Positions 37,318-61,071 of a stretch of DNA of 64,000 nucleotides are shown one piece after another. Position 1 is the first letter of the stretch. Each line of letters begins with the position of its first letter. The translations under genes and the position numbers were made by a program. The notes beneath the pieces were generated by a model that was not told where the DNA came from, made no database searches, and saw nothing but the letters and a program-made list of their open reading frames with translations. The stretch spans positions 64,001 to 128,000 of the forward strand of contig JAHLWS010000070.1 of NCBI GenBank assembly GCA_019057795.1, given 5' to 3'. Source of the stretch: Promethearchaeota archaeon (GTDB lineage: Archaea; Asgardarchaeota; Lokiarchaeia; Sigyniarchaeales; SOKP01).

Positions 37318-37931
37318 ATGGGAAGAAGAAAAAGAAAGCAACAATCTTATAAAAGAGTCAAAACAGTCCCCAAAATTTTTACTTGCCCAAACAGGTAATT
37401 ATGGTTTTCCCATTTACCTTGGATTGTGGGGAAAAAGCAATAAAAGTAGAAAATTTACGAAAAAGTGTTATAGCTACGGTGAAATGTGGTCATTGTGGTT
37501 TAACAAAGGAAGTTCTGGTTAATTCCATATCAGAACCTGTTGATGCTTTTGGAGATTTTATCGATGTTCATTATGCTGATCAAGAACTTCAGAGATTAGA
37601 AAAGCGTATTGGAAAATTAATAAAAGAAAACGAATGGGGAGAACTAGCATTCTCATACTCAATTTTATCGGATATTTGTAAACTTAAAGTTGCTCAAGCT
37701 TTAGAAGACGAAGATAAAGTAGATTTTGATGAGGTAAATAAATGGAAATTTAAAGCTGAAGAATATAAAAGGCGTGAAAAAGATGCTCTACTTCAATTAG
37801 ACACACTTGAATTGGAAAAAGGAATTAGAACAGACGAAGAATCTTTATTTTCAGAGCATGATGAGAGTGATATGAAAAAAGAAAAGAAAATTGAAGATAT
37901 CTTTGACGATCCTGGTTTTCTTGAATTTTAA
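37318..37931 (+). CDS. elf1: transcription elongation factor Elf1 with acidic C-terminal extension; spliced join(37318..37392,37425..37931), 193 aa
   Basis: MGRRKRK...VPKIFTCPN|CGEK...VKCGHCGL...SEPVDAFGDFID is the Elf1 zinc ribbon once the intron is removed. Confidence 0.88.
37393..37424 (+). other. 32-nt bulge-helix-bulge intron in mRNA
   Basis: CUUGC/GUGGG outer stem, CCAA/UUGG central helix, ACA and AUU bulges, GGUAA/UUACC and AUGG/CCAU inner stems. Confidence 0.85.
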
Positions 37932-48322: not shown

Positions 48323-49795
48323 ATGAATGTGATTAAGATTGATGAGAACATTTACGAAATACCGCCAAAAACTTTAATGGCGCGTGTAGAAGGCAAAATC
48401 GCGAAGTTTCAAATGAAAGTGCCGGTACATATTTATGCGAACGAGTACATATTGGAAAAGATCAAGAACGACAGAACGCTTGATCAGATTAGCAACGTCG
48501 CTTGCCTTCCAGGAATACAGAAGCATGCAATTGCGCTCTCCGATGCCCATCAAGGATATGGATTTTGTATAGGCGGCGTTGCTGGAACTGACGCCGATTC
48601 GGGTATGATTTCGCCTGGGGGTGTAGGGTACGACATAAATTGCGGCGTAAATTTGTTGAAAACATCATTAAACCTTAAAGACATCAATAGCTCAATTCCC
48701 AGTTTATTAAACGTTATTTTTAAGAATATACCATCAGGTTTAGGAAGTAAAGGTAAATTAAATATAAGTTATTCAGATTTAGATAATGTATTAGATAATG
48801 GTTTGAATTGGGCTTTAGACAATGGTTATGCGATCGAAGAGGATTTAGTACACTGTGAAGAAAACGGTTTTTTAAAGGATGCTAATTCAAAAATGGTTTC
48901 TCAGAAAGCTAAGCAGAGGGGGTTAAAGCAACTTGGTTCTTTAGGAAGTGGTAATCATTTTATAGAAATCCAGAAGGTTGATAAAATCTACAACGATTCT
49001 ATCGCAAAAAAATTAGGAATTTTTGATAAGGATCAAATAACAGTTATGGTTCATACAGGGTCGCGAGCTCTTGGCCATCAAGTATGCACAGATTCCTTAC
49101 GAAATGTCGAACAGGCAATGAAAAAATACAATATCAAAGTTCCTGATCGAGAATTAGCATGTGTACCAGCTGATACTCCCGAAGCACAAAATTACTTAAG
49201 TAGCATGGCGTGTGCTGCAAATTTTGGGTTCAACAACCGTCAATTAATTACCCATTGGTTAAGACAATCTTTTCAAGATTATTTGAGAAAGAGTTTAGAC
49301 GAGCTAGACTTTAAATTAATCTATGGTGTATGTCATAATATTTTAAAAATAGAGGAACACGAAGTTAATGGCAAAAAAATGAAATTAAATGTTCATAGGA
49401 AAGGAGCAACCAGAGCGTTTCCACCAGGACACCAAGATATACCGCAAGACTATAAAAGTATTGGTCAACCCGCTTTGATTCCGGGTACAATGGGATCAGC
49501 TTCCTACTTATGCGTTGGAAGGCCAAAAGCGATGGATCTCTCCTTTGGATCCACCGCTCATGGATCTGGTAGAGTAATGTCAAGATCTAAAGCTAAAAAA
49601 TTATATTGGGGTTCTCAAGTCAAAGAAGATTTAAAAAATAGAGGAATAATTGTAAAAGCTGCTTCACCTAAAATAATTGCCGAGGAAGCTCCAGGAGCAT
49701 ACAAAGATATAGATCAAGTAGTACAAGTAAGTCACGATCTTGGAATCGTAGAAAAAATTGTAAGGTTAGTTCCCATAGGGGTTGTAAAAGGTTAA
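48323..49795 (+). CDS. rtcB: RNA-splicing ligase RtcB
   Basis: DAHQGYGF, GYDINCG, GSGNHF, HTGSR, HRKGAT, PGTMG, HGSGR, EEAPGAYK. Confidence 0.97.
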   Translation: MNVIKIDENIYEIPPKTLMARVEGKIAKFQMKVPVHIYANEYILEKIKNDRTLDQISNVACLPGIQKHAIALSDAHQGYGFCIGGVAGTDADSGMISPGGVGYDINCGVNLLKTSLNLKDINSSIPSLLNVIFKNIPSGLGSKGKLNISYSDLDNVLDNGLNWALDNGYAIEEDLVHCEENGFLKDANSKMVSQKAKQRGLKQLGSLGSGNHFIEIQKVDKIYNDSIAKKLGIFDKDQITVMVHTGSRALGHQVCTDSLRNVEQAMKKYNIKVPDRELACVPADTPEAQNYLSSMACAANFGFNNRQLITHWLRQSFQDYLRKSLDELDFKLIYGVCHNILKIEEHEVNGKKMKLNVHRKGATRAFPPGHQDIPQDYKSIGQPALIPGTMGSASYLCVGRPKAMDLSFGSTAHGSGRVMSRSKAKKLYWGSQVKEDLKNRGIIVKAASPKIIAEEAPGAYKDIDQVVQVSHDLGIVEKIVRLVPIGVVKG

Positions 49796-60970: not shown

Positions 60971-61071
60971 AGCCTCTGGGGGGAATTGAACCCCCGATCT
61001 ACAGATTACGAATCTTTAGCATGTAATTCTAAATGGCATTAAATGTTGCTCTACCGCTAAGCCACAGAGGC
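60971..61071 (-). tRNA. tRNA-Thr(CGT) with 29-nt intron (61016-61044) in the anticodon stem
   Basis: GCCTCTG/CAGAGGC acceptor; splicing gives ACAGA-TTCGTAA-TCTGT; AGCA/TGCT helix with ACA and AAA bulges. Confidence 0.9.

What the first reader, a model, noticed from the sequence alone, without database searches (positions are those of the whole stretch)
37318..37931. tRNA-type (BHB) intron inside the protein-coding elf1 gene
Seen in sequence: ATG 37318 encodes MGRRKRKQQSYKRVKTVPKIFTCPN and then hits AGG TAA, while the rest of Elf1 (CGEK...CGHC...EPVDAFGDFID) lies in another frame. The junction folds into a canonical bulge-helix-bulge: outer stem CUUGC(37382-86)/GUGGG(37426-30), 4-bp helix CCAA(37387-90)/UUGG(37419-22), 3-nt bulges ACA(37391-93) and AUU(37423-25), inner stems GGUAA/UUACC and AUGG/CCAU. 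Established: archaeal splicing endonuclease EndA cuts after the 2nd nt of each bulge. That removes 37393-37424 (32 nt) and gives TGC CCA AAC|TGT GGG = CPNCG, restoring frame and the CxxC knuckle exactly (193 aa). The archaeal mRNA intron I know of is in crenarchaeal cbf5. Inference: this Asgard archaeon splices the mRNA of a transcription factor with the tRNA machinery, which makes Elf1 output depend on EndA/RtcB, loosely paralleling RtcB-ligated XBP1 splicing. Gene callers would mis-start the gene at 37383.
Basis: partly seen in the sequence, partly recalled or inferred. Interest (0 to 1): 0.96.

Follow-up and report, generated by a model that had tools for sequence, protein, structure and literature searches.

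The report
tRNA-type intron splits Asgard elf1 gene
The only gene for transcription elongation factor Elf1 in this Loki-type Asgard archaeon is broken by a 32-base insert shaped like the introns archaea cut out of tRNAs; comparison with about 160 related genomes indicates it is removed from the mRNA, which the papers I could search report for only one other archaeal protein gene (cbf5).

Summary
Exon 1 (37318-37392) matches Pfam Elf1 positions 1-27 and exon 2 (37425-37931) matches positions 28-76. The 32 nt between them carry an in-frame UAA and shift the frame. They fold as a strict helix-bulge-helix-bulge-helix motif, and its predicted cuts fall on the junction seen in intronless relatives.

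This is the genome's only elf1. Two EndA paralogues and RtcB are encoded, RtcB in this window.

Comparative support is strong:
- 16 of 37 congeneric genomes carry 28, 30, 31 or 32 nt inserts at the same codon boundary.
- All 20 loci fetched from three sister genera carry 30-32 nt inserts there.
- Every insert blocks read-through.
- Exon 1 is under purifying selection (pN/pS 0.07).
- Helix pairs covary, including exon codon bases with intron bases.
- Intronless alleles nest among intron-bearing ones, which points to precise loss.

No RNA evidence could be obtained, so splicing is inferred, not shown. This scan has already noted the elf1 intron, and other mRNA mini-introns, on other DNA and elsewhere in this genome. 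The papers I could search report none of them.

The BHB is also not the minimum-energy fold.

The parts
37318..37392 (+). elf1 exon 1, 25 codons (basic N-terminal tail and first Cys of the CxxC knuckle)
   Evidence: Pfam PF05129 profile positions 1-27; pN/pS 0.068 among 15 intron-bearing alleles.
37393..37424 (+). 32-nt BHB intron; excision restores frame and CPNCG
   Evidence: absent at exactly this point in intronless alleles (e.g. L018, 96% nt identity); strict hBHBh' geometry.
37425..37931 (+). elf1 exon 2, 168 codons plus stop (rest of the zinc ribbon, EPVD motif, long acidic C-terminal extension)
   Evidence: PF05129 profile 28-76, 36.3 bits (cut-off 29.8).
37382..37386 (+). outer (exon-exon) helix, 5' strand CUUGC; pairs with 37426-37430
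   Evidence: C-G, U.G, U.G, G.U, C-G; weak in this allele (-4 kcal/mol), strong in the 28-31 nt classes (-10.7 to -13.1).
37426..37430 (+). outer helix, 3' strand GUGGG
37387..37390 (+). central 4-bp helix, exon strand CCAA; pairs with 37419-37422
   Evidence: pairs 3 and 4 covary across genera (A-U/G-C/U-A; A-U/C-G/G-C).
37419..37422 (+). central helix, intron strand UUGG
37391..37393 (+). 5' bulge ACA; predicted cut after 37392
   Evidence: Cut between 2nd and 3rd bulge nucleotide as stated for cbf5 in PMC2738675.
37423..37425 (+). 3' bulge AUU; predicted cut after 37424
37394..37418 (+). inner hairpin: GGUAA/UUACC, 2-nt UU bulge, AUGG/CCAU, loop UUUUC
   Evidence: 3 of its 9 pairs have compensatory changes. 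RNAalifold recovers it de novo.
37396..37398 (+). in-frame UAA that ends translation of unspliced mRNA after 26 residues
   Evidence: all 36 alleles examined have a stop or frameshift in the insert.
37401..37403 (+). intronic ATG in frame with exon 2; the start used by automatic gene callers (176-aa truncated models)
   Evidence: clusters P0054 and P0060, 49 member sequences; no such ATG in 20 of 36 alleles.
48323..49795 (+). RtcB RNA ligase gene, the presumed exon-joining enzyme
   Evidence: PF01139, 561 bits, profile 1-426; 490-aa ORF.

Best explanation
The 32 nt at 37393-37424 are an archaeal bulge-helix-bulge intron inside the elf1 coding sequence. In the pre-mRNA, the last bases of exon 1 pair with the 3' end of the intron (CCAA/UUGG). 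Exon 1 also pairs with exon 2 (outer helix), and the intron interior forms a hairpin. This presents two 3-nt bulges 4 bp apart. The two-subunit splicing endonuclease EndA cuts after the second nucleotide of each bulge, and RtcB joins the exons and probably circularises the intron. The result is AAC|UGU, i.e. CPN|CG, and a 193-residue Elf1 with an intact zinc ribbon. Unspliced mRNA can yield only a 26-residue peptide. Shown here: gene structure, motif geometry, conservation, covariation, selection on both exons, the matching junction in intronless alleles, and presence of the enzymes. Inferred: the cutting and joining themselves.
For: (1) Exon 1 matches Elf1 profile 1-27 and exon 2 matches 28-76. 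The intronless orthologue P0003 matches 1-76 in one piece.
(2) This is the only elf1 locus in a genome scored 100% complete.
(3) The motif is a strict hBHBh', and its cuts equal the homology-defined junction. Chance is 2.3e-6 per position.
(4) 16 of 37 congeneric genomes have inserts of 28, 30, 31 or 32 nt at the same boundary. All 20 loci fetched from three sister genera have 30-32 nt inserts there. Only exact excision restores the frame for all these lengths.
(5) Exon 1 pN/pS is 0.068, against 0.12 for exon 2, in intron-bearing alleles.
(6) Covariation: 90.7% of cells are paired, against at most 51% when partners are slid, and 4 pairs have double changes. RNAalifold recovers the skeleton on its own. 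Central pair 4 is A-U, C-G or G-C, tracking codon 25 (N, Q or E). Central pair 3 is A-U, G-C or U-A. A two-sided 1-nt deletion turns a 30-nt allele into a better 28-nt BHB.
(7) The intronless allele L018 nests inside the 32-nt clade (100/100). Metagenomic intronless alleles are 94-98% identical to intron-bearing ones.
(8) Two EndA paralogues of about 200 aa fit an (alpha-beta)2 enzyme, and RtcB is present. Asgard EndA is reported as the broad-specificity (alpha-beta)2 type with the L1 loop (PMC5829648).
Against: No RNA-level evidence. No spliced-form protein or transcript-like contig was found. The BHB is not the minimum-energy fold, and the region is no more stable than shuffles. The outer helix of this allele has three G.U pairs and is no stronger than in its intronless sister. 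Most alleles outside the 32- and 28-nt classes and genus g21 have one mismatch in the 4-bp central helix, so they rely on a relaxed-motif enzyme. Related alleles are not independent, so covariation counts overstate the number of events.
Confidence: 0.85

Rival explanations
1. Split or truncated gene. The insert is never removed. Exon 2 is translated alone from the intronic ATG 37401 as a 176-residue Elf1 lacking the basic tail and the first zinc ligand. Exon 1 gives a separate 26-residue peptide or nothing.
For: An ATG in frame with exon 2 lies inside the insert in the 32- and 30-nt classes. All automatic annotations use it.
Against: 20 of 36 alleles have no in-frame ATG in the insert, and 15 have no ATG, GTG or TTG at all. 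Exon 1 is as constrained as exon 2 (pN/pS 0.068), and its last codons covary with the insert. A zinc ribbon with three of its four Cys is not a known functional Elf1 form. This reading does not explain the BHB geometry or its compensatory changes.
Confidence: 0.06
2. Translational recoding. Ribosomes bypass or frameshift across the insert, as in phage T4 gene 60 hopping or a programmed frameshift.
For: The hairpin directly after a stop codon is superficially like the gene 60 take-off site. The cbf5 introns were once mistaken for frameshift sites (PMC2738675).
Against: Inserts of 28, 30, 31 and 32 nt would need four different shift or hop rules. Most carry one to three stops in the entry frame. 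No take-off codon matches a landing codon: AAC or AAU before, GAU or GAA just before exon 2. The conserved feature is pairing between exon 1 and the insert's 3' end, which a hop does not need.
Confidence: 0.03
3. Decaying pseudogene or assembly artefact.
For: The frame is interrupted in a metagenome-assembled genome.
Against: The same site is interrupted in 36 independent assemblies and in 49 further database sequences. Both exons are intact and under purifying selection in all of them. It is the only elf1 copy.
Confidence: 0.02
4. RNA-level removal by some other route, such as a self-splicing element or an unknown nuclease and ligase.
For: Excision has not been observed, so the enzymes are inferred.
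Against: 32 nt is far too small for a group I or II ribozyme, and Rfam finds nothing there. The conserved features are exactly those EndA recognises.
Confidence: 0.03

Closest known systems
BHB intron in the cbf5 (pseudouridine synthase) pre-mRNA of Crenarchaeota (Watanabe 2002; Yokobori 2009, PMC2738675)
   Same: A short BHB intron inside a coding sequence splits a functionally critical motif. The cut falls between the 2nd and 3rd bulge nucleotides. The BHB is often relaxed, the enzyme is hetero-oligomeric EndA, and presence is patchy with inferred secondary precise losses.
   Different: Different gene (elf1, split between the two Cys of the zinc knuckle) and different phylum (Promethearchaeota, Asgard). 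Four length classes occur within one genus. cbf5 splicing was confirmed by cDNA and in vitro cleavage; here there is no RNA evidence.
BHB intron in the 5' UTR of Haloferax volcanii HVO_1309 (Schwarz 2020, PMC7714728)
   Same: An mRNA substrate of the tRNA-splicing endonuclease outside tRNA and rRNA.
   Different: It lies in the untranslated leader (46 nt), so it does not interrupt the reading frame. It was found by circRNA-seq and confirmed in vitro.
BHB introns of Asgard tRNA genes (bioRxiv 10.64898/2026.10.13.758758; PMC5829648)
   Same: Same motif, same size range, same presumed enzymes, and repeated gain and loss in the same lineages. A tRNA gene with about 30 extra nt lies in this window (60971-61071, minus strand).
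   Different: The host is an mRNA, so splicing must keep a reading frame and competes with translation. The preprint does not mention mRNA or elf1.
HAC1/XBP1 unconventional mRNA splicing (IRE1 cut, Trl1 or RtcB ligation)
   Same: Spliceosome-independent excision of a small intron from an mRNA for a transcription-related factor changes the reading frame. In metazoans the ligase is RtcB.
   Different: The nuclease (IRE1) and its recognition motif (twin stem-loops) are unrelated, and the event is a stress-regulated switch. Regulation is not shown here. This is an analogy only.

Membership tests
Archaeal BHB (EndA-type) intron | Two 3-nt bulges on opposite strands separated by a 4-bp helix, each bulge 3' of its central-helix strand | tested here: met
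   CCAA/UUGG with bulges ACA and AUU, in tRNA-like topology. The helix is 4/4 paired in the 32-nt, 28-nt and g21 alleles, and 3/4 in most others.
Archaeal BHB (EndA-type) intron | Flanking helices h (exon-exon) and h' (intron) | tested here: met
   outer helix 5 bp (three G.U), inner helix 5+4 bp. RNAalifold predicts both without prior input.
Archaeal BHB (EndA-type) intron | Cutting after the 2nd bulge nucleotide yields the functional junction | tested here: met
   intronless alleles read AAT|TGT or AAT|TGC at exactly this point. Pfam positions 27|28.
Archaeal BHB (EndA-type) intron | Helices maintained by compensatory change | tested here: met
   4 pairs with double changes, 90.7% paired against at most 51% in slid controls; central pairs 3 and 4 each show three Watson-Crick types across four genera.
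Archaeal BHB (EndA-type) intron | Host encodes splicing endonuclease and RtcB ligase | tested here: met
   two EndA paralogues (200 and 201 aa), one resembling the catalytic half and one the structural half. RtcB.
Archaeal BHB (EndA-type) intron | Spliced RNA and excised or circular intron observed; accurate cleavage by EndA in vitro | not testable with these tools
no transcript-derived spliced form found.
Elf1 (Pfam PF05129 zinc ribbon) | CxxC...CxxC ribbon, basic N-terminus, EPVD-type motif, score above the gathering cut-off | tested here: met
   exon 2 alone scores 36.3 bits (cut-off 29.8) and exon 1 covers profile 1-27. The first CxxC exists only after excision; the intronless orthologue scores 65.5 bits.
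Programmed translational bypass (T4 gene 60 type) | Matching take-off and landing codons flanking the gap | tested here: not met
   AAC/AAU/GAA/CAA before the insert; GAU/GAA/GAC immediately before exon 2. No consistent match across alleles.
Group I / group II self-splicing intron | Ribozyme core of hundreds of nucleotides | tested here: not met
   The insert is 32 nt; the only Rfam matches in the window are two tRNAs.

The most novel reading that the evidence does not exclude
The elf1 intron is one visible member of a routine mRNA-splicing layer in this Loki-type family. Many ordinary and essential protein genes would carry roughly 30-nt BHB introns that EndA and RtcB must remove. The only rpl11 of this genome is also broken into three frames, and earlier unchecked notes of this scan list more such genes. 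The elf1 intron has persisted across four genera with a stop codon placed right after the 5' splice site. Splicing may therefore compete with translation and set the Elf1 level, linking transcription elongation to tRNA-splicing capacity in the closest prokaryotic relatives of eukaryotes.
Probability: 0.4. Interest if true: 0.9.

Novelty: new member of a known kind. Interest (0 to 1): 0.78.

Why it matters
In the papers I could search, endonuclease-type splicing of an archaeal coding sequence is documented only for cbf5 in Crenarchaeota, plus one 5' UTR intron in Haloferax. An intron in elf1, kept for a long time in Asgard archaea and polymorphic between species, would have several consequences.
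- Protein-gene splicing by the tRNA machinery would be neither a crenarchaeal oddity nor limited to one gene.
- It would provide a natural series (0, 28, 30, 31 and 32 nt alleles) for testing what a relaxed BHB needs.
- It exposes a systematic annotation error: at least 49 database entries are truncated 176-residue models.
- It raises the question of how far mRNA had to be processed before translation in the lineage nearest to eukaryotes.

Tried and rejected
(2) I looked for spliced forms as proteins. The spliced products of 15 intron-bearing alleles match no full-length cluster representative exactly. The closest 193-residue proteins (P0006, P0007) lie on metagenomic DNA scaffolds with neighbouring genes, so they are genomic intronless alleles.
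(3) Exact junction scans of JGI metagenome contigs. The 32-nt-class junction gave 0 hits. The 30-nt-class junction gave 5 hits, all on 2-17 kb genomic contigs.
(4) Genome-wide de novo scan: a strict BHB whose excision fuses two open frames. True-register joins did not exceed controls shifted by 1-2 nt (for example 34 against 31.6 for 28-34 nt). The background is closely spaced gene boundaries. The scan says nothing either way about how many mRNA introns this genome has, and elf1 itself is missed at a 60-codon flank because exon 1 has only 25 codons.
(5) Looking for copies of the intron elsewhere in the genome with blastn-short found none. The one 25-nt look-alike on contig C11 lies inside an uninterrupted ORF. 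So there is no sign of a repeated mobile family.
(6) Single-sequence thermodynamics do not single out the BHB.
(7) The bacterial promoter and terminator scan is uninformative for an archaeon.

Full report
**Observation**

ATG 37318 opens 25 codons ending FTCPN, followed by AGG UAA. From 37425 another frame reads CGEK...CGHC...EPVDAFGDFID to a stop at 37929-37931. Pfam's Elf1 model (PF05129) matches exon 1 at profile positions 1-27 and exon 2 at positions 28-76. Removing exactly 37393-37424 therefore joins the two halves with no gap or overlap and rebuilds the first CxxC knuckle. The intronless orthologue P0003 matches positions 1-76 in one piece at 65.5 bits.

All 18 proposed base pairs are present:
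- an outer exon-exon helix, CUUGC/GUGGG, of which three pairs are G.U;
- a 4-bp central helix, CCAA/UUGG;
- two 3-nt bulges on opposite strands, ACA and AUU;
- an inner hairpin, GGUAA/UUACC plus AUGG/CCAU.

The topology is that of a tRNA intron: on each strand the bulge follows the central-helix strand. The cut between the second and third bulge nucleotide is the rule stated for the cbf5 introns (PMC2738675).

**Is it more than chance?**

I scanned both strands of the whole 4.95-Mb genome (31% G+C) for strict BHBs. A motif with outer helix of at least 5 bp, inner helix of at least 5 bp and a 32-nt excision occurs 23 times in 9.9 million positions, or 2.3e-6 per position. Here it coincides with a boundary that homology defines independently.

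Single-sequence thermodynamics do not help. The BHB fold (-11.5 kcal/mol) is not the minimum-energy fold of the 86-nt context (-18.4). The 61-nt fold is no more stable than shuffles (z = -0.99).

**Genomic context**

The window is contig C70:64001-128000 of a genome of 87 contigs. The genome is scored 100% complete with 7.5% contamination, and this is its only Elf1 locus. Congeneric assemblies are titled Promethearchaeota or Lokiarchaeota MAGs, so the Asgard assignment stands.

The genome encodes two EndA paralogues of 200 and 201 residues. One aligns to the catalytic half and the other to the structural half of fused endonucleases. This fits the (alpha-beta)2 enzyme with the L1 loop that has been reported for Asgard archaea and associated with broad, relaxed-motif specificity (PMC5829648). 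RtcB lies in this same window at 48323-49795.

**Comparative evidence within the genus**

Of the 42 species-level genomes of the genus, 37 have elf1. In 21 it is uninterrupted and in 16 it is interrupted. I fetched all of them. The inserts are 32 nt (5 genomes), 31 nt (1), 30 nt (9) and 28 nt (1), and each lies exactly between codon 25 and the second Cys codon. The 30-nt inserts are in frame but carry UAA. The others shift the frame. Only exact excision gives one protein for all four lengths.

Exon 1 of the intron-bearing alleles has many synonymous and few replacement differences (pN/pS 0.068, against 0.12 for exon 2). It is therefore translated in its own frame even though it is cut off from exon 2.

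Synonymous sites that pair in the BHB are fixed in intron-bearing alleles and free in intronless ones. For example, codon 23 is TGC in 16 of 16 intron-bearing alleles against 11 of 22 intronless ones. Codon 24 is CCA in 15 of 16 against 8 of 22, and the single CCG allele has a matching U-to-C change in the intron. These alleles are related, so this is suggestive rather than a test.

**Structure conservation**

On the 16-sequence alignment A1, the BHB I specified is paired in 90.7% of cells. With the 3' partners slid by 1-3 columns, at most 51% are paired. Four pairs have compensatory double changes, and 0-6 of 500 column shuffles reach the observed values. RNAalifold, given no structure, returns the same skeleton: outer helix, 3-nt 3' bulge, central helix and inner hairpin.

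The 28-nt allele differs from its 30-nt sister by one deleted base on each strand. The two deletions together convert a mismatched central helix into a perfect CCAA/UUGG.

**Beyond the genus**

A class-wide search covered 161 genomes, 143 of them with elf1. It showed the same interruption in three further genera of the same family. No interruption was seen in the other six families sampled. All 20 loci I fetched from those three genera carry inserts of 30-32 nt at the same codon boundary. Their sequences are quite different, but the architecture is the same.

Across 33 distinct alleles, central-helix pair 4 is A-U, C-G or G-C. It tracks the first base of codon 25 (Asn, Gln or Glu), so an amino-acid change in the exon is matched by a change in the intron. 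Pair 3 is A-U, G-C or U-A. Most alleles outside the 32-nt, 28-nt and g21 forms have one mismatch in the 4-bp helix. They are therefore relaxed BHBs, as are most cbf5 introns. The allele in this window is a strict one.

**Gain and loss**

In a maximum-likelihood tree of the exons, 15 of the 16 intron-bearing genus alleles fall in one supported clade (95/94). That clade also holds three intronless alleles. One of these (L018, genome G005) sits inside the 32-nt subclade (100/100). Metagenomic contigs add intronless alleles that are 94-98% identical in nucleotide sequence to 30- and 32-nt alleles.

The simplest history is one old gain, followed by length drift and repeated precise losses. Precise loss is what recombination with a copy of spliced mRNA would produce, as was argued for cbf5. 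That step is inference.

**Rival explanations**

- *Internal initiation at the intronic ATG 37401.* Gene callers assume this: 49 database sequences are 176-residue models beginning MVFPFTLDCGEK. However, 20 of 36 alleles have no in-frame ATG in the insert, and 15 have no start codon of any kind. This reading also leaves the selection on exon 1 and the covariation unexplained.
- *Translational bypass or frameshifting.* This would need a different rule for each length class. Most inserts carry stops in the entry frame, and no take-off codon matches a landing codon.
- *Pseudogene or assembly artefact.* This is excluded by 36 independent assemblies with both exons intact.
- *A ribozyme.* This is excluded by size and by the absence of any Rfam match.

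**What is missing**

I have no RNA evidence. Indirect searches for spliced forms found only genomic intronless alleles. My genome-wide motif-first scan for further mRNA introns did not rise above its shifted-register controls, so it is uninformative. The intron has no other copies in the genome.

**Comparison with what is known**

Full-text searches found no paper linking BHB introns to Elf1 or to protein genes of Asgard archaea. A 2020 paper states that cbf5 is the only additional BHB intron reported in an archaeal mRNA, and itself adds a 5' UTR case in Haloferax (PMC7714728). A 2026 preprint on Asgard tRNA introns does not mention mRNA.

Earlier notes of this scan, which are AI notes and mostly unchecked, had already flagged elf1 introns in related genomes and other mRNA mini-introns in this genome. 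My allele survey reproduces their 30- and 31-nt elf1 forms. I also saw that this genome's only rpl11 is split across three frames.

**Verdict**

This is a real feature and very probably a spliced mRNA intron (0.85). It is a new member of the kind defined by cbf5. It is of high interest because of the lineage and because the natural allele series makes the mechanism directly testable.

Noticed in passing
window 60971-61071 (-): Rfam finds a 101-nt tRNA gene (50.3 bits) with about 30 extra nucleotides in the anticodon-arm region. ARAGORN does not call it, so it probably carries one or more BHB introns.
   Followed up: partly
window 48323-49795 (+): The RtcB RNA ligase gene (490 aa, PF01139 561 bits), the presumed exon ligase, lies 11 kb downstream of elf1 in the same window.
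   Followed up: partly
G000 C73:108504-109000 (-), loci L097/L098: The only rpl11 of this genome is broken. The L11 N-terminal domain matches only profile 26-58, and the upstream residues (MSKTNK...GGPP, then GPAVGPTGIN) lie in two other frames separated by hairpin-forming inserts of about 30 nt.
   Followed up: partly
window 37401-37931 (+); proteins P0054, P0060: Public gene models of intron-bearing elf1 alleles are 176-residue truncations that start at the intronic ATG. At least 49 member sequences in two 90% clusters are affected, so this is a systematic annotation error.
   Followed up: yes
window 37570-37931 (+): This Elf1 carries a charged, probably helical C-terminal extension of about 120 residues beyond the 76-residue zinc-ribbon domain. 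The extension is conserved in length (193 aa) across the genus.
   Followed up: no
G058:C1:196-723, G059:C64:11530-12057, G060:C77:3366-3890: In another family of the same class, two Elf1-like domains sit in tandem in single ORFs of 237-320 residues.
   Followed up: no
loci L059, L062, L063, L065: Record titles of genomes in or near this genus disagree (Hermodarchaeota, Odinarchaeota, even 'Nanopelagicaceae bacterium'). NCBI labels for these MAGs look unreliable.
   Followed up: no
36 elf1 alleles: In 32 of the 36 alleles a stop codon lies within the first two codons after the 5' splice site, so unspliced mRNA would end translation almost at once. Whether this is selected is unknown.
   Followed up: partly
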